A stretch of 64,000 bases of DNA from contig NZ_UQRQ01000005.1 in assembly GCF_900543425.1 (NCBI RefSeq), positions 1,597 to 65,596 on the forward strand, read 5' to 3'. The position numbers and the translations under genes were made by a program. Origin of the DNA: an uncultured Sanguibacteroides sp. Its GTDB lineage: Bacteria; Bacteroidota; Bacteroidia; Bacteroidales; Marinifilaceae. How positions within the stretch are numbered: the stretch's first letter is position 1; each line of letters begins with the position of its first letter. Shown here piece by piece: positions 2,616-54,902 of this stretch. A model generated the notes under the pieces. The model saw only the letters and a list, made by a program, of their open reading frames with translations, made no database searches and was not told the DNA's origin.

Positions 2616-4094
2616 ATGTTACGTACTATCAGACTAACAATTGCCATCGTGAGTTTAATTCTCATCTCCCTGCTATTCCTCGATTTTACAGGAACGTTAC
2701 ATACGTGGTTCGGCTGGTTGGCCAAAATACAATTTCTGCCGGCTCTACTGGCATGGAATGTTGGTGTGGTGCTATCTCTTATCATACTGACATTCGTATT
2801 CGGACGTATTTACTGTTCCGTCATTTGTCCCCTCGGTATATTTCAAGATGTCATTTCCTGGCTGGCAGGAAAACAAAAGAAGAATCGGTTCCGCTATTCA
2901 CCCGCTTTATCTTGGCTACGATACGGCATATTAGCCGTGTTTATCATCGCCTTACTTGCAGGTATCAACTCGTTGGTCGCACTACTCGCTCCTTACAGTG
3001 CCTACGGTCGTATCGTTTCTAATCTATTCGCTCCCCTTTGGCAATGGGGAAATAACCTATTGGCTTATGGAGCCGAGAGAATAAACAACTATACATTTTA
3101 TTCCGTTGAAATATGGATGAAAAGTGCAGCGACCTTAGGTATCGCAATCACGACTTTTATCGTCCTCGCTCTATTGGCATGGCGGAACGGACGTAGTTAT
3201 TGCAACACAATTTGTCCTATTGGCACCCTACTCGGATTTTTATCTCGTTACTCCATTTTCAAACCTGTAATAGACACCTCCAAATGTAATAGTTGCGGTT
3301 TATGTGCCCGCAATTGTAAAGCATCCTGTATCGACTCCCAAAAGCACGAAATTGATTACAGCCGTTGCGTAACCTGCATGGACTGTCTGGGAATATGTAA
3401 ACGGGACGCCATCAAATACGTACGCCCCAACACGGTTAAAATCGAAAACAGAGATCAACAGATCAACAAGGCTCGTCGCAACTTTCTCACGGTAACGGCC
3501 CTGTTTGCAACAAGCACAGCACTAAAAGCTCAAGAGAAAAAAGTAGACGGCGGCTTAGCCACTATAGAAGATAAAAAAATTCCAGACCGTACCACTTCCC
3601 TCACTCCTCCCGGTTCCCTGAGTATACGCAATTTCACTAAGCATTGTACGGCCTGTCAGCTATGCGTATCGGTTTGTCCGAATCATGTATTGCGTCCCTC
3701 TGACGCTCTCTCTACATTCATGCAACCCGAAATGTCGTACGAGCGAGGCTATTGTCGTCCGGAATGTACCAAATGCTCGGAAATCTGTCCTACCGGGGCA
3801 ATTCATCCGATTACCACGGCGGATAAATCGGCTGTCCAAATCGGTCACGCCGTATGGATAAAAGAAAATTGTGTTCCTCTGACTGACGGAGTTAACTGTG
3901 GCAACTGTGCCCGCCATTGTCCGACAGAGGCTATACAAATGGTTCCCTCCGATCCGAACATATCAACCTCACTTCGGATTCCAGTAGTGAATACAGAACG
4001 CTGCATCGGTTGCGGAGCCTGTGAGTATTTATGCCCGGCACGACCTTTTAGCGCTATTTACGTGGAAGGACACCAGTCGCACCGAATTGTATAA
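2616..4094 (+). CDS. membrane polyferredoxin, NapH-like N-terminal half fused to a NapG-like C-terminal half
   Basis: 492 aa. Has TM helices and two CX3CP motifs (CSVICP, CNTICP). Two 4Fe-4S motifs (CNSCGLCARNC, CVTCMDCLGIC) come next. An internal RRNFLTVTALFATSTALKA segment follows, then four more Cys clusters (CTACQLCVSVCP, CRPECTKCSEICP, CGNCARHCP, CIGCGACEYLCP). Confidence 0.75.
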   Translation: MLRTIRLTIAIVSLILISLLFLDFTGTLHTWFGWLAKIQFLPALLAWNVGVVLSLIILTFVFGRIYCSVICPLGIFQDVISWLAGKQKKNRFRYSPALSWLRYGILAVFIIALLAGINSLVALLAPYSAYGRIVSNLFAPLWQWGNNLLAYGAERINNYTFYSVEIWMKSAATLGIAITTFIVLALLAWRNGRSYCNTICPIGTLLGFLSRYSIFKPVIDTSKCNSCGLCARNCKASCIDSQKHEIDYSRCVTCMDCLGICKRDAIKYVRPNTVKIENRDQQINKARRNFLTVTALFATSTALKAQEKKVDGGLATIEDKKIPDRTTSLTPPGSLSIRNFTKHCTACQLCVSVCPNHVLRPSDALSTFMQPEMSYERGYCRPECTKCSEICPTGAIHPITTADKSAVQIGHAVWIKENCVPLTDGVNCGNCARHCPTEAIQMVPSDPNISTSLRIPVVNTERCIGCGACEYLCPARPFSAIYVEGHQSHRIV

Positions 4095-8158: not shown

Positions 8159-9634
8159 ATGAAAAGATTACTCACTTTAATAGGATTTTGTTGTACCCTT
8201 ACTCTTTCCGCTCAACATTCGGACAATAGAATCAAAAACTTGATCATAACCGGTAAATACTCAGAGGCAACTATTTATATCGATTCGTTACTCGGTACGG
8301 GAATAGAATCTCCCTTCCTCTTTTTTTACGCGGGCAAGGCTAACGAAGGATTGATGCGCTATAATAATGCTTATCAATACTACAAAAAATGGTATTCCAA
8401 CGACACCACAAACCAAGATGCCAAACTGGCTATGGCCCGATCGGCTAATCTGGCCGGGCATCAAACAACCGCATTGGAATATTATGAACAATTGTCACAG
8501 GAAGACTCACTACATTTCGTCATCAACCTCTCTTTAGGCCGTCTTTACCAGCAGATCCAGGACTACCCTGAAGCCATACAGGTTTATACGAGGTTATTGA
8601 CCGTAGATTCAACCAATACCTCATTGCTTGCCAGTCTGGGAGATTGCACGAACGAATTGGGCCTTATTGCTGATGCTCTGTCTTTTTATATCCGGGCTTT
8701 CGAACAGGATAAAAACAACGGAAGAATCGCTCTAAAAGCGATCAATACCATACGTAAAGATAAAAAAATTTGGCCTGAATTCATGGATACAATCATCGCT
8801 TTGGCAGATACGGCAATTCGATATAATCCGAACTACCTGGCCTTGGCACAAGGTCGGGGAATATTAAAATACTTCAACAAATGCTACAAAGAGTGTGATA
8901 CGATATTTACCAAATTAGCTGAATCAGGAAGAGCGACCCGCGTAACTTGCAAATATTACGGATTAACTCTATTCCAATTAAAACGCTTTTTACAAGCCGA
9001 GAAATGGCTTGCCCGAGCAGATTCACTATTCATGGATGAAGAAGGTAACCACACGGATCTCGACGTTGCCCTAAGGTATGGAGAGACATTAATTCAAACC
9101 GGAAATCCCTACAAAGCACTCCAGATTTTTCAGGAAGTCGAAACACAGCTACAACCGGACAACACATTACTTTCCCGAATTTCGGTAATGAACGGTAATG
9201 CATACGGCACATCCGGAGAAAATAAAAAAGCCATACTGGCTTATTGGCTGGCTTATAAACAATATCCTGAAAACAAACAGGCAATTGCCAACCTGACCTA
9301 CCTTTGCCAACCTAAAGATTCTAACGAAAGTATTCTTATGTCACAAGGCATACTCAGAGAAAAGATGTTATTCACCTGCATTTTGTTCTTGGAAAATTAC
9401 AATGTTAAAAGTCGATATACGGAAATCATGCAGGAGTATTGCAGAGAAGTTTTAAATCATGCTTTGAAAGAAGCATTTTTGAAAAACGCCAAAAAACTAA
9501 CGGTAAGAGATCCGGAAGGCAAAAAATACACGTACTCTTACCGCGAACTTCACCGGCTTGCTAATCCACCAGAATCTCCGGCTCCACCGACTCCGCCGAC
9601 ACCGTTAACACCAAAATCCATGTCATATGACTAA
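8159..9634 (+). CDS. TPR-repeat protein with signal peptide and Pro-rich C-terminus
   Basis: 491 aa. Signal peptide MKRLLTLIGFCCTLTLSAQ, repeated A-x-x-Y-Y/L helical TPR-like units, and the tail PPESPAPPTPPTPLTP. -7 box TATATTTG at 8108-8115. Confidence 0.65.
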   Translation: MKRLLTLIGFCCTLTLSAQHSDNRIKNLIITGKYSEATIYIDSLLGTGIESPFLFFYAGKANEGLMRYNNAYQYYKKWYSNDTTNQDAKLAMARSANLAGHQTTALEYYEQLSQEDSLHFVINLSLGRLYQQIQDYPEAIQVYTRLLTVDSTNTSLLASLGDCTNELGLIADALSFYIRAFEQDKNNGRIALKAINTIRKDKKIWPEFMDTIIALADTAIRYNPNYLALAQGRGILKYFNKCYKECDTIFTKLAESGRATRVTCKYYGLTLFQLKRFLQAEKWLARADSLFMDEEGNHTDLDVALRYGETLIQTGNPYKALQIFQEVETQLQPDNTLLSRISVMNGNAYGTSGENKKAILAYWLAYKQYPENKQAIANLTYLCQPKDSNESILMSQGILREKMLFTCILFLENYNVKSRYTEIMQEYCREVLNHALKEAFLKNAKKLTVRDPEGKKYTYSYRELHRLANPPESPAPPTPPTPLTPKSMSYD

Positions 9635-46387: not shown

Positions 46388-46804
46388 TTATTCCAAATCA
46401 GGCTGTATCGTCACGTTAAATGTTACGTCGGTAGTTCCGATTGTATTCCTGAGTACGATCTTATATCTTCCTGAATCCTTTGTTTTCGCCTCTTTTAGAG
46501 TAACGGTCACCTTATTTTTTTGTATATCGATACCTTCCGAAGGCTGATACAACTTACCATCCTTATACACCTCACAAGTTGCCTCCGGTTGCGAGGTGTA
46601 TTCAATATAAAAGGAAACGATCTGCCCTTCGAAACCTTTAACATTAAGACTTTTAGGAATTTTCTGGGTTATCACCGGTTGAACACCCGTACCACGAAGT
46701 ACCCCCTCCGTAACATCACGATTCTCTGATTCCTTAACATCGTTATTTTTAAACCCGGTAAAACTTACAAATAACATTAAAACAACTAATAATTTCTTCC
46801 GCAT
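46388..46804 (-). CDS. small secreted single-Ig-domain protein (I-set-like), paralog A
   Basis: 138 aa. Signal peptide MRKKLLVVLMLFVSFTGF, then PVITQKIP..VKGFEGQIVSFYIEY...EVYKDG...VTVTLKEAKTKDSGRYKIVLRNTIGTTDVTFNVTI. -7 box TATTTTTG (minus strand) at 46838-46845. Confidence 0.7.
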   Translation of the reverse strand: MRKKLLVVLMLFVSFTGFKNNDVKESENRDVTEGVLRGTGVQPVITQKIPKSLNVKGFEGQIVSFYIEYTSQPEATCEVYKDGKLYQPSEGIDIQKNKVTVTLKEAKTKDSGRYKIVLRNTIGTTDVTFNVTIQPDLE

Positions 46805-46999: not shown

Positions 47000-48001
47000 C
47001 ATAGTACCAGAGAACTATAAAAATATTCTTTAATTATGGGGAATCAGGTATCTTCCGTGGGATATTCATAATATTTTTAGAAACATCTTTTTATCGAAAT
47101 AAGAAAACTATAAAATTTTTCGGTTTCATAACTCTAAAACCCGAATCCTCATTATCGACTATAATTTCCTCTTCATCCTTGTTAGAAATGAAAAATAGAT
47201 GAATCTACACTAAAAACGTCGATTATCTTATCACTTGAAGGTAGCTTGCCTCTTTTGTTTCCAACAGTATCACAACTGGAAGATCCTGAGCCAAAGGTAT
47301 TCCCATCGTGAAAATAATCTCCCAAGAAATAATTGTAAGCTGCACGTTCTAATCTCTCGTCACCCACGGAGGGGAATCATTCACATTTGCTTATCAAACT
47401 CTACAAGATCCGGAACGGCACTTCTGTTAAAAAGCCAATCCCCCGGCAAAAACAAAGAATCCACAGGTAACGTATAAGGCTTCTTCTGAAAATAAACAAA
47501 TTACGGAGAATTAGCGGATAAGCAATCACGGATAACACAAAGAAACCTATTCACATCAGCAAAATAAATCTCCGTTGTAACAGGTAATTCTCCAGATTAA
47601 CATGTCCCGTTAAATTCACAAACATATTTGACATAAACCTTGACACCGAATCGAGTAAACCATTTAACCAATCATTCTCAAAAAAATAAAGAATCCAAAA
47701 ACAACGAATAGAGTCAGTAAACTGATCACCCCGTGACAAGCGAAATAGGCTAAAAAATAAGAGATTCCCCCAAAAATAAACTAGGATAAAAAGGGCAAGA
47801 AACCCAATAAAAGAGATAAGTATACAAACCGAAAGAAAGGGAATAAAAACTGACATTCATCAGGATGGAAACATCGAACACGATAAAATTTACTAGCGTG
47901 AAAAACAGTAATCTTCCCAAGAAGTTTGCGGTCACAATCTCCCCGTTATTCAAGGAGCAGCCCCATAACATTTCCATCGCTTTAAACCAGCCTCCCCTCA
48001 A
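47000..48001 (-). pseudogene. decayed, internally deleted paralog of the 1105-aa membrane protein gene
   Basis: ~47027-47435 aligns by eye to 49903-~50328, and ~47436-48001 aligns to ~51975-52545 of the intact gene, at an eyeball-estimated ~75% nt identity. Track fragments 47182..47367, 47551..47856 and 47750..48001 translate to recognisable pieces (NFLGRLLFFTLVNFIVF, DWLNGLLD, TGHVNLENYLLQR, VFSVDSSIF) in different frames. Confidence 0.8.
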
Positions 48002-48281
48002 GGCTGTCCTATTAAATTAATTATAAAAAGCACGTCAACAATATTGGAATAAAAAATCATATAAACTTTAGACTTGAGCATGACTTATAAAATTCAATCC
48101 AACAAAAAGTTAAACAAATTATTTTTTAATACTAATATCAGTTGACAAAAACTATTAATTAACAACATTAAGAATAGATTAAATATATTCCTACAAGAAA
48201 AATTAATTTGATTCATTATATAAAGAATTGGCTCGAGATATACTTTTAATCCCAAAACCAATTCTTGTCAAATACAACATG

Positions 48282-48701
48282 TTAATTATCCGGATCAGCA
48301 TAGATCTTTACATTAAATATCACGTTAGTCTCTCCTGCCGAATTTTTAAGCACAATCTTATATTCCCCTGAATCTTGCCGAGCAGCACATAATAGTTTAA
48401 CTGTTAGAACTTCACTAGTAAAAGAAACATCTTCCGAAGATTGCCATAGTTCGCCATCTTTATATATTTTATAAGTAGCCTCTGGATTTGCAGTAAAATT
48501 AATTTCAAATTTAACAATTTGTCCTACAAAACCTTTTACATTACCATCACGAGGAGTCGTATAGTTAACAACAGGTTTACTCGGTGGTGCAAAAAGTAAT
48601 ATTTTACTAATATTGACATCACTAATTTTTTCTACTTCTTGACTTCTAAACCCTGTAAAACTTAAAAATAAGATCAAAACAAATAATATATTTATTTTCA
48701 T
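48282..48701 (-). CDS. small secreted single-Ig-domain protein (I-set-like), paralog B
   Basis: 139 aa. MKINILFVLILFLSFTGF leader, then PVVNYTTP..VKGFVGQIVKFEINF...KIYKDG...LTVKLLCAARQDSGEYKIVLKNSAGETNVIFNVKI. Confidence 0.7.
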   Translation of the reverse strand: MKINILFVLILFLSFTGFRSQEVEKISDVNISKILLFAPPSKPVVNYTTPRDGNVKGFVGQIVKFEINFTANPEATYKIYKDGELWQSSEDVSFTSEVLTVKLLCAARQDSGEYKIVLKNSAGETNVIFNVKIYADPDN

Positions 48702-48884: not shown

Positions 48885-49295
48885 TTATTCATTAGGATAT
48901 ATCTTCACATTAAATTTGGCTTCAGCTGTTCCAGCTTTATTCCAAAGCACAATTTTATATTCCCCAGAGTGAGCTAATTTTACATTCTTTATAGTACATT
49001 CCATCGTGTCTTGATTTTTACTAATATTTCCAGAACCAAATTGTTCACCATCCTTTAATATTACAAATTCAGTAGACGCATCTGCAACAAATTCAATAGC
49101 AAATGTCATAATCTGACCTTCAAAACATTTAACCTCACCATTACGAGGAATCGTTCTAGTTATCACAGGCGCTTGCGACAAAACAGCATATAACTCCTTA
49201 GAAATATTAAGACTGTTAGAAGTTACCACCTCTTTATTTTTAAACCCCGTAAGACTTACAAATAACATTAAAACAAATAATAATTTTTTCTTCAT
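48885..49295 (-). CDS. small secreted single-Ig-domain protein (I-set-like), paralog C
   Basis: 136 aa. MKKKLLFVLMLFVSLTGF leader, then PVITRTIP..VKCFEGQIMTFAIEF...VILKDG...MECTIKNVKLAHSGEYKIVLWNKAGTAEAKFNVKI. Confidence 0.7.
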   Translation of the reverse strand: MKKKLLFVLMLFVSLTGFKNKEVVTSNSLNISKELYAVLSQAPVITRTIPRNGEVKCFEGQIMTFAIEFVADASTEFVILKDGEQFGSGNISKNQDTMECTIKNVKLAHSGEYKIVLWNKAGTAEAKFNVKIYPNE

Positions 49296-49488: not shown

Positions 49489-52400
49489 TCACTCTTTTAC
49501 TTTTACCCATTTCACGGCATCAGCCACAAGTCCCTGAGAATACTCTTCATTCATTTTTTTATCACTTAGTGTTACCCTTGCGTTTTCAGTAAAATCAAAT
49601 ACTCCAAGAGAGACCCAACATCCCAAGTCGTCCTCTCCCGGAGCAACAACCACTTCATGCTCTTTTCTGCCATCAAAAACGGTATAAAAACGTGAAGTTT
49701 CTTGCTTTTTCTTTTCTGATAAAGAAGAGAATTCAATCCAATCAGGAATACTTTTCCGACCGCCACCGGCGAAGGTCGTATAGTAAAAAAAAACCTCATA
49801 CTTCCCTGCTTCAGGCAACCGAACACTCCATTCCACTTTTTGTTTACCTTCGCTAACTTCTTTATAAAGCGCACTTCGCACCGGGAAACCATAGAAATGT
49901 TCTTTAATCGTGGGTAACCAAGTATCTTCCGTGAGATATTCATAATATTTTTTAGAAACATCTTTTTGCCGGAATAAAGAAGTTATAAAATTTTTCGGTT
50001 TTACGATTCTAAAACCCGAATCCTCATTATCAACTATAATTTCGTCGCTGCTCGAAGCGAAAATAGACGAATCCACACTAAAAACACCGGTTATCGTGTC
50101 CTTACTCAAACAACTTGCCTCTTCCGGCTCTAATCGAATCATTGAAGGAAGATTCTGAGCCAATGGCGTTCCTATGCTAAAAACTGCCTTTAAACTGGAA
50201 ATCCGAGATACACGTGTTCTGATTTCCTTTGCCTCGTGAGGGGGAATAATCCATGCCTGATGAAATTCTGTCTCGACAAGACCGGGCACATCACTCCTAT
50301 TGAATACCTTAAAACAGTACAGCCAATAGGGTTCGTCTATTCCCGTAATCTTTATTGCCCGAGGTTCTCTGATATCAAGTATAGGCAATCGGTTGGTATG
50401 ATACCAATCCTCCACGAGTGAGTCCAAACGAACCCCGAAGGCCAGATGAAATTGGTCAAAAAACACTTTTGCGGTCGTCTCTCTGAAAAAATTGTTTGCT
50501 AGAAAACCATGATAAAACTGACGAAATGGTTCGTTTCCCACTAACAAAGAGATATATGAATACAACTCCTCGCTTTTTTTACGAATGATATTTTCCAGCA
50601 CTTCCGGTAACAATGAATGGTCATATAAAGCATCTTTCAGGCTATTATGACTCAGATATTCCACGGCAACATAATCATCAACGGGAGAAGACCATGCTTT
50701 AAGACCTCCATACCTGCGGGCCACGTTAGCCAGAACATCATGTAAAATCGGGTATTCCCGGGAAGCAATAAATGTCGTTTTACCCCGCATCATGGGACGT
50801 ATATCACAACTACCCTCTCCAAATAACGTTTTAATATCACGCAACTTCATTCTTATATCCATAAAATTCTCTTTTTCCTCCTCGGCTTTACCATCCGGAC
50901 TTTCAAAAGGATAACCTTTTATAGAATAGGCTTTCTCGGGAAGAAAAACAAGTCCTCCCTGCACTCTCTCTCCACCTCTTTGCATCACTCCTGGAAAACA
51001 ATAAAAAGCAACAGGCACTTCCAAGAGCGTCACCCAACGATACGGGTATTGCTGTATCGGATCATGAATTTCTCGCTCCTTATTATAAAAACTTGCGATA
51101 TAACATTTTTCCAGAAATTTCGGCGTTTGTATACATTCTTCACTCTCCATACCACGTTTAATATGCGAGAGTCTTGACACGATAGTGTCTTTCAGTAAAA
51201 TATCGTAATCCTTAAGAAGGTACTCGTGATCAGGCAAATAATAGAGTTCCAAACGAACAGGACCTAACGAGGCCATCCGTTTCTTGTAATGTCCAATACA
51301 AAGACTAATACCCGGCATACCATGATCAAAAGCAAACACGGTTTCTCCTTCTCTCTCGCTAACAACATCTCCCTGAGAAATAGCCGTCAGCATGGGATCA
51401 TGTTCCACGCTTAAACTATAGCGGGAAAAATTTACATCCCGAACTCCCGACTCCCCGTATGGAGGCACACAAACCGGATACCAGACACATTCAGGCGTGA
51501 GTAACTTGTAATCTTTACCGCAAAAGGCAGGTGAATAACCGAAACCATATATACCGATACGATTTACTCTCGAAAAATTGTAGTCTCGTGTGATCACGTC
51601 CAGAAAACACAGGTCATTGTCAACACCTCCCTCGTAACTCATAACAACCTCGCAGTTCTCTCCCGGCTTTAACTCTTTACCCGTGATCAATGCCTGGTGA
51701 TCCTTACGGAAAGAAACGGGTTGACCGTCAATATCGAGACGATTCACGGTCAAACCCGGGTTAAGGTAAATCACGAGAGGGATTACAACAGATGCTCGAT
51801 TTGTAACGGTCAACTCGCTGACCACGGAGATATCACCATTCCCGAGCTCCTTCACCTGCAAATCATTCCGTACCACACGGGCTGCAGGATGTTTACCATG
51901 TTCGGCGTAAACCTGCCTGTAAATCTCCCGGTTCATATTAACGGAAGTGTGACGAACGTAATAAGCAAAAGCCAGTCCACAAGCGAAAACAAAAAATCCA
52001 CAAGCAACACCCACGGTTTTTCTGAAAATAAGCAAATCATTGGGAATTCGCGGGTAAGGAATCACGGACAACACCAGAAAACCTATTCCCGTCAACAAGA
52101 TAAATCCCCGTTGCAACAAGTAATTCCCCAGGTTAACGTGACCCGTGAAATCCGAGAACATGCTCGGTATAAATCGTGCAACCGGGTCAAGCAAACCATT
52201 TAACCAATCGCTCCCGAAAAAAATAAAAACTCCAAGAACAGCAAATAGGATCAGTAAGCTGATTCCCTGGTGACGAACGAAGAGGGCCACGAGATAAGAA
52301 ATTCCCAAAAAATAAACCAGGGTAGGCAAGGTTAAGGTAACCCAATAAAAAAGATAGGCCCATAAATCGAAAGAGCGGGAATAAAAATTGGCGTTGATCA

Positions 52401-52806
52401 AGATGGAAACGCCGAACACGATAAAATTCACAAGTGTGAAAAACAATAATTTCCCCAAGAAGTTTCCGATGACAATTCCGCAGTTACTCAAGGGACGGAC
52501 ATGTAACGCCTCCATTGCTCTTAGCCTGGCCACCCTCGAATCACCAGTAATGTAACCGATGACGAAAAGCAACTGAACAAAATTAAAGTAATAGGCCGCC
52601 TTGTAAGCCATGGATGATGGAAAGACTTGTGAGATCCAATCCAACGAGGAACGAAACAAATCATTTACCGAGCCGGCCGATGCCGGGGTGAACAGGTAAA
52701 CAAGAAGCCCAACAATGGAAAGGATGGTAAATATACCAAAAACAACAGTCCTGCAGGAAGATTTAAGCTCGTATAAAGTGATCACAAAAACAGCACGCTT
52801 ATCCAT
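49489..52806 (-). CDS. giant membrane protein: ABC-2-permease-like 7-TM N-terminus + M1-aminopeptidase-like extracytoplasmic body lacking HEXXH + golvesin-like C-terminal beta domain
   Basis: 1105 aa. About 7 hydrophobic helices in aa 20-290, then a long soluble region. I found no HEXXH or GxMEN in the translation. The C-terminus W..RLPEAGKYEVFFYY...GCWVSLGVFDF...VTLSD...GLVADAVKWVKV fits the golvesin C-terminal-like pattern. No ABC ATPase gene is nearby. Confidence 0.6.
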   Translation of the reverse strand: MDKRAVFVITLYELKSSCRTVVFGIFTILSIVGLLVYLFTPASAGSVNDLFRSSLDWISQVFPSSMAYKAAYYFNFVQLLFVIGYITGDSRVARLRAMEALHVRPLSNCGIVIGNFLGKLLFFTLVNFIVFGVSILINANFYSRSFDLWAYLFYWVTLTLPTLVYFLGISYLVALFVRHQGISLLILFAVLGVFIFFGSDWLNGLLDPVARFIPSMFSDFTGHVNLGNYLLQRGFILLTGIGFLVLSVIPYPRIPNDLLIFRKTVGVACGFFVFACGLAFAYYVRHTSVNMNREIYRQVYAEHGKHPAARVVRNDLQVKELGNGDISVVSELTVTNRASVVIPLVIYLNPGLTVNRLDIDGQPVSFRKDHQALITGKELKPGENCEVVMSYEGGVDNDLCFLDVITRDYNFSRVNRIGIYGFGYSPAFCGKDYKLLTPECVWYPVCVPPYGESGVRDVNFSRYSLSVEHDPMLTAISQGDVVSEREGETVFAFDHGMPGISLCIGHYKKRMASLGPVRLELYYLPDHEYLLKDYDILLKDTIVSRLSHIKRGMESEECIQTPKFLEKCYIASFYNKEREIHDPIQQYPYRWVTLLEVPVAFYCFPGVMQRGGERVQGGLVFLPEKAYSIKGYPFESPDGKAEEEKENFMDIRMKLRDIKTLFGEGSCDIRPMMRGKTTFIASREYPILHDVLANVARRYGGLKAWSSPVDDYVAVEYLSHNSLKDALYDHSLLPEVLENIIRKKSEELYSYISLLVGNEPFRQFYHGFLANNFFRETTAKVFFDQFHLAFGVRLDSLVEDWYHTNRLPILDIREPRAIKITGIDEPYWLYCFKVFNRSDVPGLVETEFHQAWIIPPHEAKEIRTRVSRISSLKAVFSIGTPLAQNLPSMIRLEPEEASCLSKDTITGVFSVDSSIFASSSDEIIVDNEDSGFRIVKPKNFITSLFRQKDVSKKYYEYLTEDTWLPTIKEHFYGFPVRSALYKEVSEGKQKVEWSVRLPEAGKYEVFFYYTTFAGGGRKSIPDWIEFSSLSEKKKQETSRFYTVFDGRKEHEVVVAPGEDDLGCWVSLGVFDFTENARVTLSDKKMNEEYSQGLVADAVKWVKVKE

Positions 52807-53067
52807 AACATTCTGACGTTTATAAATTAACCAATTTCTCCATACACAGAGAAATAAGGAATCATTCCATGAAAAAAGACAATCCCAACTGCACTTAATG
52901 AATCAATATAATTTCTCAAAATTAGAAAAAATAATAATATACACAAATAATATTAATGAATATATCATTAATATATACAACAAAACAAAATCACCTTTAA
53001 AGTATCATCATATAACTACCAATAAAGTAATTCATTACCCGAATTCACAATAAATGTTCTCATATCG

Positions 53068-53553
53068 CTACTCTACCTTCACCCACTTCACGGCATCGGC
53101 CACCAACCCTTGCGTTGATTCTATCCTGTCACTCAAGGTTACTTTGGCGTTTTTAGAAATTTCTACCTTAAACGTAGCTTTAACAGATCCGAATTCATTC
53201 GTGAGTACAATATCATATATCCCAGTGTCACTTAATTCTGCATTTTCTATTTTAACTGTAGCTTTTCCTTCCGTATATACAAGATTACCTGAATTATCAC
53301 CTAATACGCCATCTTTATACACTTCCACGAAAACGGCAGGTTCTGCCATAAATTCAATATAAAATGTAATAATTTGCCCCACATAACCTCTAACATCCCC
53401 ATCCGGAACTATTTTTGTTATCACAGGTTTATTTCCTTTGAAAGAAAATAATTCTCGCCTGACATCAGGACCATTCGATACCTCTAACTCTTTATTCTTA
53501 AATCCCGTAAGAGCAACAAACAACACTAAAACAAATAAAAATATCCTCTTCAT
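53068..53553 (-). CDS. small secreted Ig-domain protein, paralog D, chimeric with the C-terminal ~24 aa of the giant-protein family
   Basis: The track start at 53586 is TTG. I prefer the ATG at 53553 (MKRIFLFVLVLFVALTGF), 31 nt downstream of the minus-strand -7 box TACATTTG (53584-53591). Ig body PVITKIVP..VRGYVGQIITFYIEF...EVYKDG...ATVKIENAELSDTGIYDIVLTNEFGSVKATFKVEI, then the tail AKVTLSDRIESTQGLVADAVKWVKVE. Confidence 0.7.
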   Translation of the reverse strand: MKRIFLFVLVLFVALTGFKNKELEVSNGPDVRRELFSFKGNKPVITKIVPDGDVRGYVGQIITFYIEFMAEPAVFVEVYKDGVLGDNSGNLVYTEGKATVKIENAELSDTGIYDIVLTNEFGSVKATFKVEISKNAKVTLSDRIESTQGLVADAVKWVKVE

Positions 53554-53966
53554 AACATTAATTAATGTAGTTAATATATTTTTCAAATGTAAAATATATC
53601 GCTAAATCATCCAAACAATGTACAATAAAGTTTTATCACAACACAACAAACACCATTATTAAAATAAAAATTCCATTATTTCAATAAAAAATAATTTTTC
53701 GGCCAATTTACATCTCACGTTTACGAAGAAATTTTACAAAAAATGCTCCACGCTAAAAAAGAGGACGTTTTTGCATCCTGTAAAAAACTATATTCCTTTA
53801 GAAAATACTTAAAGCACCTACGATTATATATATCGTTCAAAATCTTCACTATCCTCCGATGTTTTTTTAATCCGGTCAATGTATGCACATAATGTAGCAT
53901 CATAGTTATAAACCCTATCGTCTACAACTAAGCTATATCAGATTCTCATTTATCTCTCCGGAAAGA

Positions 53967-54902
53967 TTATACCAATAAATAGACCGTATAGATCAAATAG
54001 ACTGCAAACAGTAAAATCCCCTCCCAACGTTCAATCCGAAATCCCGTACGCATAAAAGGGAGTACAATGACAGCCGAACCTAACATGACTGCCATATCCA
54101 ATATATTAATCTGATCTGTTTGGATAGGAGTAATTGTTGCCGTAGCTCCCAGCACGGCGAATAAATTGAATATATTGGAGCCGATTACATTCCCGATAGC
54201 GATGTCCGTCCGTTTTTTCAAGGCGGCAACGACGGAAGTCGCTAACTCCGGCATACTCGTTCCGGCGGCAACGATGGTCAATCCGATTACGGCTTCACTC
54301 CATCCCAAGGTTTTGGCAATAACCACGGCATTTTTTACCAACATATCCGATCCCCAAACCAATAAAAATAGTCCTCCGATCACCAGTACTACATCCAATA
54401 ACCAACTTTTCGTCGGTTTCATCTCCTGCTCTCCTTCGATAACCTCCCCTTTTTTGGCCTTATAGACACATAAGAACATATATCCCGCGATTCCTACTAA
54501 AAACAGGATTCCGGATAGGCGTCCGAAACGTCCGTCACTAAACAAAACCACAAAAAGCAGAGAAGCGACAAGCATAATCGGGGTATCGATTCGAATCAAT
54601 CGTCTATCTACCTGCAAAGGGTAGATCATGGCGGAAATCCCTAAAATCACACAAATATTAAAAATATTGGAACCGATTACGTTTCCGACAGCAATGCTAC
54701 TTATACCATCCAACGCCGACTTTACACTAACCACTAATTCGGGAGCGCTCGTACCCAAGGCTACAACCGTTAAACCGACGACCAAAGGGGAGATCCCAGC
54801 CCGAACTGCCATGGATGAACTTCCCTTTACCAGAAAGTCCGCCCCGAAATAGAGTATCACCAGGGATAATACAACTAAAATTACACTTAATATCATAGGC
54901 AT
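53967..54902 (-). CDS. Ca2+/Na+ antiporter (CaCA family, YrbG-like)
   Basis: 311 aa with two alpha-repeat motifs (GTSAPELVVS... / GTSMPELATS...) and GNVIGSNIFN present twice. Confidence 0.85.
   Translation of the reverse strand: MPMILSVILVVLSLVILYFGADFLVKGSSSMAVRAGISPLVVGLTVVALGTSAPELVVSVKSALDGISSIAVGNVIGSNIFNICVILGISAMIYPLQVDRRLIRIDTPIMLVASLLFVVLFSDGRFGRLSGILFLVGIAGYMFLCVYKAKKGEVIEGEQEMKPTKSWLLDVVLVIGGLFLLVWGSDMLVKNAVVIAKTLGWSEAVIGLTIVAAGTSMPELATSVVAALKKRTDIAIGNVIGSNIFNLFAVLGATATITPIQTDQINILDMAVMLGSAVIVLPFMRTGFRIERWEGILLFAVYLIYTVYLLV

What the first reader, a model, noticed from the sequence alone, without database searches (positions are those of the whole stretch)
53068..53148. Chimeric Ig gene carries the last ~24 codons of the giant-protein family, and that tail differs only by synonymous changes
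Paralog D ends ...FKVEISKN-AKVTLSDRIESTQGLVADAVKWVKVE*. The giant protein (49489-49584) ends ...FDFTEN-ARVTLSDKKMNEEYSQGLVADAVKWVKVKE*. The other three Ig paralogs stop right after the FNV.I strand, so D has acquired this tail.

I compared the codons by hand. In QGLVADAVKWVKV, 7 of 13 codons differ between the two copies (cag/caa, gga/ggg, ctt/ttg, gct/gcc, aaa/aag, gta/gtg, aaa/aag). In VTLSD, 3 of 5 codons differ (aca/acc, cta/ttg, gat/gac). All 10 differences are synonymous. The segment between these two blocks is diverged and differs in length.

Similarity also continues about 25 nt past the stop codons (ATTACCCGAATTCACAATAAAT vs ATTACACCAGTATGCAATAAAT). This shows that a giant-gene 3' end was recombined onto an Ig gene.

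A synonymous-only pattern argues that the tail is under purifying selection in both contexts and is not a decaying scar. It could be a terminal beta-strand pair, a docking or strand-complementation tag, or a sorting signal shared by the Ig protein and the giant protein.
Basis: seen in the sequence. Interest (0 to 1): 0.65.

Follow-up and report, generated by a model that had tools for sequence, protein, structure and literature searches.

The report
Deletion scar fusing two neighbouring genes
The extra tail on this small Ig-domain gene is the leftover end of a neighbouring 1,100-codon gene that a 3.4-kb deletion removed, so its synonymous-only differences were inherited from that gene and do not show that the tail has a function now.

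Summary
Ig gene D (53068-53553, minus strand) ends in 29 codons matching the C-terminus of the 1105-aa protein at 49489-52806. All codon differences in the two conserved blocks are synonymous.

The donor was a lost paralog, not that protein. A close relative's contig (L001; flanks 99-99.9% identical) has D ending FKVEINE* after 134 aa, a 160-nt spacer, then an intact 1101-aa paralog, giant1. Giant1's last 92 nt match the window's tail at 90 of 92 positions, and its 3' flank aligns collinearly with the window's (86.5%). The window therefore carries a 3385-nt deletion with 1 nt of microhomology at 53159, in frame by chance.

The synonymous differences are ordinary giant1/giant2 paralog divergence (whole gene pS 0.68, pN 0.19). 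The motif A-D-A-V-K-W is nearly invariant across 75 family members, so the pattern predates the fusion.

The tail is the last three strands of a Golvesin_C (CBM-like) beta-sandwich and is modelled with no confident structure on D.

The fused protein occurs, letter for letter, on about 12 contigs from several assemblies. It is therefore neither an assembly artefact nor confined to one genome assembly, but it shows no variation with which to test selection. The array holds other remnants of the giant-gene family.

Verdict: a recent deletion scar, of low interest.

The parts
53160..53553 (-). Ig gene D proper. It has an N-terminal hydrophobic segment and one I-set Ig domain, residues 1-131 plus the first base of codon 132 (its second base, 53159, is the ambiguous junction base).
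   Evidence: Pfam I-set, E 5e-9. 390 of 394 nt are identical to the unfused D ortholog on L001. In the AlphaFold model residues 41-135 have pLDDT of about 90 or more.
53159..53159 (-). Deletion junction. This single T could come from either side (1 nt of microhomology).
   Evidence: The match to L001 D runs through L001 position 10395. The match to L001 giant1 starts at L001 position 13780. Both map to window 53159, so 3385 nt are missing.
53068..53158 (-). Remnant of the deleted paralog giant1: its last 29 codons (SKNAKVTLSDRIESTQGLVADAVKWVKVE) and its stop codon, now read in frame as the tail of D.
   Evidence: With the junction base (53068-53159), 90 of 92 nt are identical to L001 13780-13871, the 3' end of an intact 1101-aa gene. 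The tail corresponds to strands 1075-1083, 1092-1095 and 1097-1102 of the C-terminal beta-sandwich in the model of the paralog. On D, residues 138-161 have pLDDT below 50.
52807..53067 (-). Former giant1-giant2 spacer, now the spacer between the D fusion and giant2.
   Evidence: It is collinear with L001 13872-14145. The first ~120 nt after the stop codon are nearly identical, and the spacer as a whole is 86.5% identical.
49489..52806 (-). giant2, the surviving intact paralog (1105 aa). It has an ABC-2-like membrane N-terminus, an M1-aminopeptidase-like fold without HExxH, and a Golvesin_C domain.
   Evidence: Pfam Golvesin_C, E 8e-10. 66% amino-acid identity to L001 giant1. Model pLDDT 84. 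Foldseek E of about 1e-15 to M1 aminopeptidases. No HExxH or GxMEN in any of 75 family members.
47017..48186 (-). A second decayed copy of the giant gene. Fragments match residues ~39-284 and ~853-972, with frame changes and a large internal deletion.
   Evidence: tblastn of giant1 and giant2 against the window and blastn against the G. massiliensis GM7 locus.
48885..49295 (-). Ig paralog C (136 aa), without a tail.
48282..48701 (-). Ig paralog B (139 aa), without a tail.
46388..46804 (-). Ig paralog A (138 aa), without a tail.

Best explanation
The tail of D is a deletion scar.

The ancestral arrangement, preserved on a close relative's contig, was: Na/Ca exchanger gene, Ig gene D (134 aa), a 160-nt spacer, giant1 (1101 aa), a spacer, giant2.

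In the window's lineage one illegitimate deletion of 3385 nt, with 1 nt of microhomology, removed three things: the last two codons and stop of D, the spacer, and codons 1-1072 of giant1. The remaining 29 codons of giant1 happened to be in frame with D, which has a one-in-three chance. D therefore now reads through them to giant1's stop codon and uses giant1's 3' flank.

The amino-acid identity with synonymous-site saturation between this tail and giant2's C-terminus is old paralog divergence. It arose under strong constraint on the last strands of the Golvesin_C (CBM6/35/36-like) sandwich in full-length proteins, before the fusion.

Shown here: the deletion, its breakpoints, its direction and its recency.

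Inferred: on D the tail is an unstructured, probably functionless and tolerated appendage. Three terminal strands of a sandwich of about ten strands cannot fold alone.
For: 1. L001 carries D ending FKVEINE* (134 aa), followed by a full 1101-aa giant1 ending ...FDFSKNAKVTLSDRIESTRGLVADAVKWVKVE*.
2. The window from 53159 downstream is collinear with the giant1 3' end and spacer of L001. The tail matches at 90 of 92 nt and the first ~120 nt of the spacer are near-identical. The window upstream of 53159 matches D at 390 of 394 nt.
3. The breakpoints are mapped to the base, 3385 nt are missing, and the join is in frame.
4. A short contig of run X1 continues from the tail into giant1-type sequence (TGTATTCGATT) rather than into D.
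5. Over the whole gene, giant1 versus giant2 gives pS 0.68 and pN 0.19. Of the identical residues, 47% use different codons, and eight runs of 10 or more identical residues carry 30-80% synonymous codon differences. The tail is therefore not special.
6. Family-wide conservation in the 75-sequence alignment: A1095 in 74, D1096 in 75, A1097 in 75, V1098 in 69, K1099 in 75, W1100 in 70.
7. Pfam does not report Golvesin_C on D, so only a fragment is present. The tail has pLDDT below 50.
8. None of eight other members of this Ig family has the tail.
9. The same array contains other remnants of the giant-gene family: window 47017-48186, and in G. massiliensis GM7 a 5'-truncated 437-aa copy and a free 71-aa tail ORF.
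Against: - The fused protein is the common form in the databases. The exact 161-aa sequence is on about 12 contigs from several assemblies. The unfused D and intact giant1 are on one Logan contig only, and X1 may be that same sample. The fusion is therefore at least tolerated, and a selective advantage cannot be excluded.
- L001 is a metagenome-type contig with mosaic similarity: 99-99.9% to the window on the left, 98.5% to GM7 over giant2. It could be partly chimeric, although the D-spacer-giant1 stretch exists in neither of the other genomes.
- The fold of the tail was predicted without any alignment depth over the tail.
- No reads from the window's own sample could be found.
Confidence: 0.9

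Rival explanations
1. One reading: the tail is a functional module on D. It could be a strand-complementation or docking tag, a terminal beta-hairpin or a sorting signal, kept by purifying selection in both the Ig protein and the giant protein.
For: - The fusion is in frame.
- The exact protein is found on about 12 contigs from several samples.
- The motif is the most conserved part of the giant family, so it is important in its native context.
Against: - The synonymous pattern predates the fusion.
- After the fusion there is 1 synonymous and 1 non-synonymous change.
- The fusion genes on the two contigs whose DNA was compared are 486 of 486 nt identical to the window, and the other carriers encode the identical protein, so no diverged allele is on record. 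This reflects recent common descent, not retention over time.
- No other Ig family member has the tail.
- The tail is not a known sorting domain: D and giant2 gave no T9SS C-terminal domain or other such hit in Pfam or NCBIfam at E up to 1.
- The tail is modelled with pLDDT below 50.
- An in-frame outcome has a prior chance of one in three.
Confidence: 0.07
2. The junction is an assembly artefact, and the real genome has intact D and giant1.
For: No reads of the window's own sample could be inspected.
Against: - The identical junction and protein occur on about 12 contigs built by different assemblers from different samples: ENA ERZ19634599 (k119, MEGAHIT-style contig), Logan ERR1620280, and NCBI records.
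- There is no repeat at the breakpoints that could collapse an assembly, only 1 nt of microhomology.
Confidence: 0.01
3. The tail was copied onto D from giant2, or from another distant paralog, by gene conversion or recombination, rather than left behind by deletion of the adjacent gene.
For: D's tail and giant2's tail are identical in 13 of 13 and 5 of 5 residues.
Against: - The tail differs from giant2 at nearly every synonymous site, and the linker differs in length.
- The tail is 90 of 92 nt identical to giant1 of L001.
- Collinearity continues through giant1's 3' flank into giant2.
Confidence: 0.02

Closest known systems
Chimeric ORFs and gene remnants made by illegitimate deletion between adjacent bacterial genes (ordinary gene decay in tandem paralog arrays)
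   Same: Both breakpoints lie inside coding sequence and there is almost no microhomology. The intact donor gene sits at the same position in a close relative. Other truncated copies lie in the same array.
   Different: The join happens to be in frame, so the remnant is translated as a 29-residue extension of a small secreted Ig-domain protein. This allele is the common one in public assemblies.
Golvesin_C domain (Pfam PF25275; 'CBM6-CBM35-CBM36_like_2'). It is found in Dictyostelium golvesin, Bacillus GL1 xanthan lyase and the Bacteroides lectins Cbeg4/Cbeg5 (PMC9166713)
   Same: The tail is, by descent, the last three beta-strands of such a domain. The full domain is present in giant1 and giant2.
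   Different: D has only about 25 of the 132 profile positions and Pfam does not report the family on it. It cannot be called a Golvesin_C or CBM protein.
Donor-strand complementation tags of chaperone-usher pilus subunits
   Same: A short terminal beta-strand segment is attached to an Ig-like domain.
   Different: - No incomplete acceptor fold was identified.
- D's Ig domain is modelled as complete with high confidence.
- There is no chaperone or usher gene nearby.
- The tail's origin is explained by a deletion.
This is a resemblance only, and no complex was modelled here.

Membership tests
Remnant of a deleted neighbouring gene (deletion-generated fusion) | An intact donor gene lies at the corresponding position in a close relative. 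| tested here: met
   L001 has D (134 aa), a 160-nt spacer and giant1 (1101 aa) between the same flanking genes.
Remnant of a deleted neighbouring gene (deletion-generated fusion) | Both flanks are collinear and near-identical up to a sharp breakpoint. | tested here: met
   390 of 394 nt match on the left and 90 of 92 nt on the right. The breakpoint is at window 53159 and 3385 nt are missing.
Remnant of a deleted neighbouring gene (deletion-generated fusion) | The junction is supported by independent data and is not an assembly error. | tested here: met
   The exact fusion protein is on about 12 contigs from several assemblies. Two were checked and are 486 of 486 nt identical. Reads of the window's own sample were not available.
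Golvesin_C domain (PF25275) | A match to the whole domain profile (about 132 positions) above the gathering score. | tested here: not met
   D gives no PF25275 hit at E up to 1. Only the last 29 residues derive from the domain. giant2 (E 8e-10) and L001 giant1 (E 1e-11) do meet the criterion.
Immunoglobulin I-set domain (PF07679) | A profile match above the gathering score. | tested here: met
   D scores 36.4 bits against a cut-off of 23.7. A, B and C score 31-39 bits.
C-terminal sorting signal (for example a T9SS C-terminal domain) | A match to a known C-terminal sorting-domain model. | tested here: not met
   No such family was reported for D or giant2 in Pfam or NCBIfam at E up to 1.
Tail under purifying selection in the D context | dN/dS below 1 among changes that arose after the fusion. 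| tested here: inconclusive
   There are only 2 changes against the donor ortholog, 1 synonymous and 1 non-synonymous. There is no variation among fusion-bearing contigs.

The most novel reading that the evidence does not exclude
The in-frame remnant has been co-opted. The three orphan Golvesin_C strands on D pair with the CBM-like domain of the surviving giant2, or with another D molecule. This would tether the secreted Ig protein to the membrane protein, which could explain why the fused allele predominates in sequenced members of this lineage.
Probability: 0.04. Interest if true: 0.5.

Novelty: new member of a known kind. Interest (0 to 1): 0.15.

Why it matters
The main value is as a caution. 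A synonymous-only pattern between two gene fragments shows selection over their shared history, not in their present contexts. One close relative was enough here to show that the pattern was inherited from a gene that has since been deleted.

Biologically, the finding documents rapid gain and loss of genes in an array found so far only in Gabonibacter (family Odoribacteraceae). The array combines single I-set Ig genes with about 1,100-aa proteins made of a membrane domain, a catalytically dead M1-like fold and a CBM-like domain. Three genomes show three different arrangements. The array itself may deserve study; the tail does not.

Tried and rejected
A genome-wide search for the motif and extraction of the window's own genome were therefore not possible.
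- The scan of genome contigs with a giant-family alignment found only G. massiliensis GM7.
- The scan of metagenome contigs with the D fusion found nothing.
- The look-up of sequencing runs found no run of the window's own sample. The only holder, X1, is a low-depth relative with the unfused form and may be the same sample as L001.
- The word-indexed homolog search with D returned only the unfused ortholog.
- The search of 1.84 billion representative proteins with D matched through the Ig domain: each hit's best-scoring stretch lay mainly in it, mostly in huge multi-Ig proteins. It revealed no tailed relatives.
- A PDB sequence search with the C-terminal domain found nothing.
- Similarity past the stop codons between the D flank and the giant2 flank was tested and is not significant on its own.
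- Assembly artefact and gene conversion from giant2 were both rejected, for the reasons given under the rival explanations.

Full report
**Observation**

The minus-strand ORF at 53068-53586 most likely starts at the ATG at 53553, giving 161 aa. It encodes a hydrophobic N-terminal segment and one I-set Ig domain (Pfam E 5e-9). It then continues with ...FKVEISKNAKVTLSDRIESTQGLVADAVKWVKVE*.

The 1105-aa protein at 49489-52806 ends ...FDFTENARVTLSDKKMNEEYSQGLVADAVKWVKVKE*. Over the two blocks the Nei-Gojobori pS is about 0.89, which is saturated, and pN is about 0.04. Ig paralogs A, B and C stop 2-6 residues after the last Ig strand.

The claimed similarity beyond the stop codons is weak taken alone. 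About 6-8% of shuffled or random AT-rich controls reach the same score.

**What the tail is, structurally**

The 1105-aa protein has three parts:
- an ABC-2-like membrane N-terminus;
- a middle region with an M1-aminopeptidase fold (Foldseek E of about 1e-15 to IRAP, ERAP1 and F3), with no HExxH or GxMEN in any of 75 family members;
- a C-terminal Golvesin_C domain (PF25275, E 8e-10).

The Golvesin_C domain type is also known as CBM6-CBM35-CBM36_like_2 and occurs in the Bacteroides lectins Cbeg4/5 (PMC9166713). In the AlphaFold model (pLDDT 84) the shared tail corresponds to the last three strand elements of that sandwich: 1075-1083, 1092-1095 and 1097-1102. D therefore carries a fragment of a domain, not a domain, and Pfam does not report Golvesin_C on D.

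**Where the tail came from**

A homolog search with D returned a single cluster. Its representative is a 134-aa protein, 96% identical, ending FKVEINE*.

That protein's contig is L001, a Logan assembly of SRR30480186. It has the same upstream genes as the window (RelA/SpoT, Nramp, Na/Ca exchanger). The order is then D (134 aa), a 160-nt spacer, an intact 1101-aa paralog that I call giant1, a spacer, and the ortholog of the window's 1105-aa gene (giant2). Giant1 ends ...FDFSKNAKVTLSDRIESTRGLVADAVKWVKVE*.

Alignments show:
- the window upstream of position 53159 matches D of L001 at 390 of 394 nt;
- from 53159 downstream the window matches the 3' end of giant1 at 90 of 92 nt;
- the match continues through giant1's 3' flank into giant2.

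The breakpoint is a single ambiguous T at 53159. Relative to L001, 3385 nt are missing (L001 10396-13780). This segment comprises the end of D with its stop, the spacer, and giant1 codons 1 to about 1072. The join is in frame.

The direction of the event is unambiguous. In giant1 the junction lies in a hairpin turn inside a conserved sandwich (WVSLGVFDF | SKNAKVTLSD), and none of eight other members of this Ig family has a tail.

**Why the synonymous pattern says nothing about the present**

Giant1 and giant2 are old paralogs with 66% amino-acid identity. Over the whole gene pS is 0.68 and pN is 0.19. Of the identical residues, 47% use different codons. Eight runs of 10 or more identical residues carry 30-80% synonymous codon differences.

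The C-terminal motif is the most conserved stretch of the whole family. In the 75-sequence alignment, whose members are only 22-94% identical to the window's giant2 overall, the counts are A1095 in 74, D1096 in 75, A1097 in 75, V1098 in 69, K1099 in 75 and W1100 in 70. The constraint therefore acted on full-length proteins before the fusion.

Since the split from the unfused relative the tail has two changes, GCC/GCT (synonymous) and CAA/CGA (Q/R). That is too few to test anything.

**Is the fusion real, and how widespread is it?**

The exact 161-aa fusion protein is on about 12 contigs from several assemblies, including ENA ERZ19634599, Logan ERR1620280 and NCBI records. The two contigs I compared are 486 of 486 nt identical to the window's gene. 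This rules out an assembly artefact, and the allele is not confined to one genome assembly. The absence of any variation points to one recent event inherited by a clonal lineage.

The unfused D with intact giant1 was found on one contig only. A short contig of run X1 also shows the giant1-type continuation at the junction. It carries the same two variants as L001, so it may be the same sample. Reads from the window's own sample could not be found.

**The locus is decaying generally**

- The window holds another decayed copy of the giant gene at 47017-48186, with an internal deletion and frame changes.
- Gabonibacter massiliensis GM7 was the only genome found in the species collection. It is about 93% identical to the window over giant2 and Ig genes C and B.
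- GM7 has a third arrangement: a 5'-truncated 437-aa giant ORF next to a thioredoxin gene, then giant2, Ig C, Ig B, a free-standing 71-aa Golvesin_C tail ORF, an extra Ig gene, an intact third giant and Ig A.

C-terminal remnants of giant genes are thus recurrent products of deletions in this array.

**Likely consequence**

The AlphaFold model of the fusion gives a confident Ig domain (pLDDT of about 90 or more for residues 41-135). Residues 138-161 have pLDDT below 50 and are not docked on the Ig domain. The caveat is that the alignment had no depth over the tail.

I infer that the tail is a tolerated, unstructured appendage. The real genetic change is the loss of giant1.

**Verdict**

It got there by deletion of the adjacent paralog, and there is no evidence of selection on the tail in its new context.
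- Confidence in the deletion-scar explanation is 0.9. The chance that the tail has been co-opted is about 0.04-0.07.
- Interest is low.

Noticed in passing
window 47017-48186 (-): Decayed copy of the giant gene between Ig B and Ig A. Fragments match residues ~39-284 and ~853-972, with a large internal deletion and frame changes. At the nucleotide level it is closer to giant2 of GM7 (75%) than to GM7's third giant (67%).
   Followed up: partly
L009 (G. massiliensis GM7, LN913013.1) 2743-4056 and 8984-9199: GM7 has a 5'-truncated 437-aa giant ORF abutting a thioredoxin gene. It is only about 72% identical at the nucleotide level to giant1 of L001. GM7 also has a free-standing 71-aa ORF that is just a Golvesin_C tail (...KNAKVTLSDRKSDEKNSQGLVADAVKWVKVEE*), lying between two Ig genes. 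Three genomes therefore show three different arrangements of this array.
   Followed up: partly
window 49489-52806 (-) and 75 homologs (alignment A5): The giant family (about 1,060-1,140 aa) occurs in Gabonibacter, Sanguibacteroides, Butyricimonas and Odoribacter, with one hit in Zixibacteria. It has an M1-aminopeptidase fold, yet none of the 75 members has HExxH or GxMEN. It looks like a membrane-anchored pseudo-peptidase with a CBM-like end, and its function is unknown.
   Followed up: partly
window 46388-46804, 48282-48701, 48885-49295, 53068-53553 (-): In a library of 1.84 billion representative proteins, the best matches to the single-Ig proteins are 3,000-7,000-aa multi-Ig proteins with 10-26 matched repeats at about 27-30% identity. 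Only four small single-Ig representatives exist. The N-terminal hydrophobic segment has an invariant T-G-F and no cysteine, so it is not a classical lipobox.
   Followed up: no
window 52807-54902 vs L001: Divergence from L001 is mosaic: Na/Ca exchanger gene 99.9%, D 99.0%, giant1-giant2 spacer 86.5%, giant2 94.6%. L001's giant2 is 98.5% identical to GM7. Either recombination between lineages occurs inside the array, or the metagenome contig is partly chimeric.
   Followed up: partly
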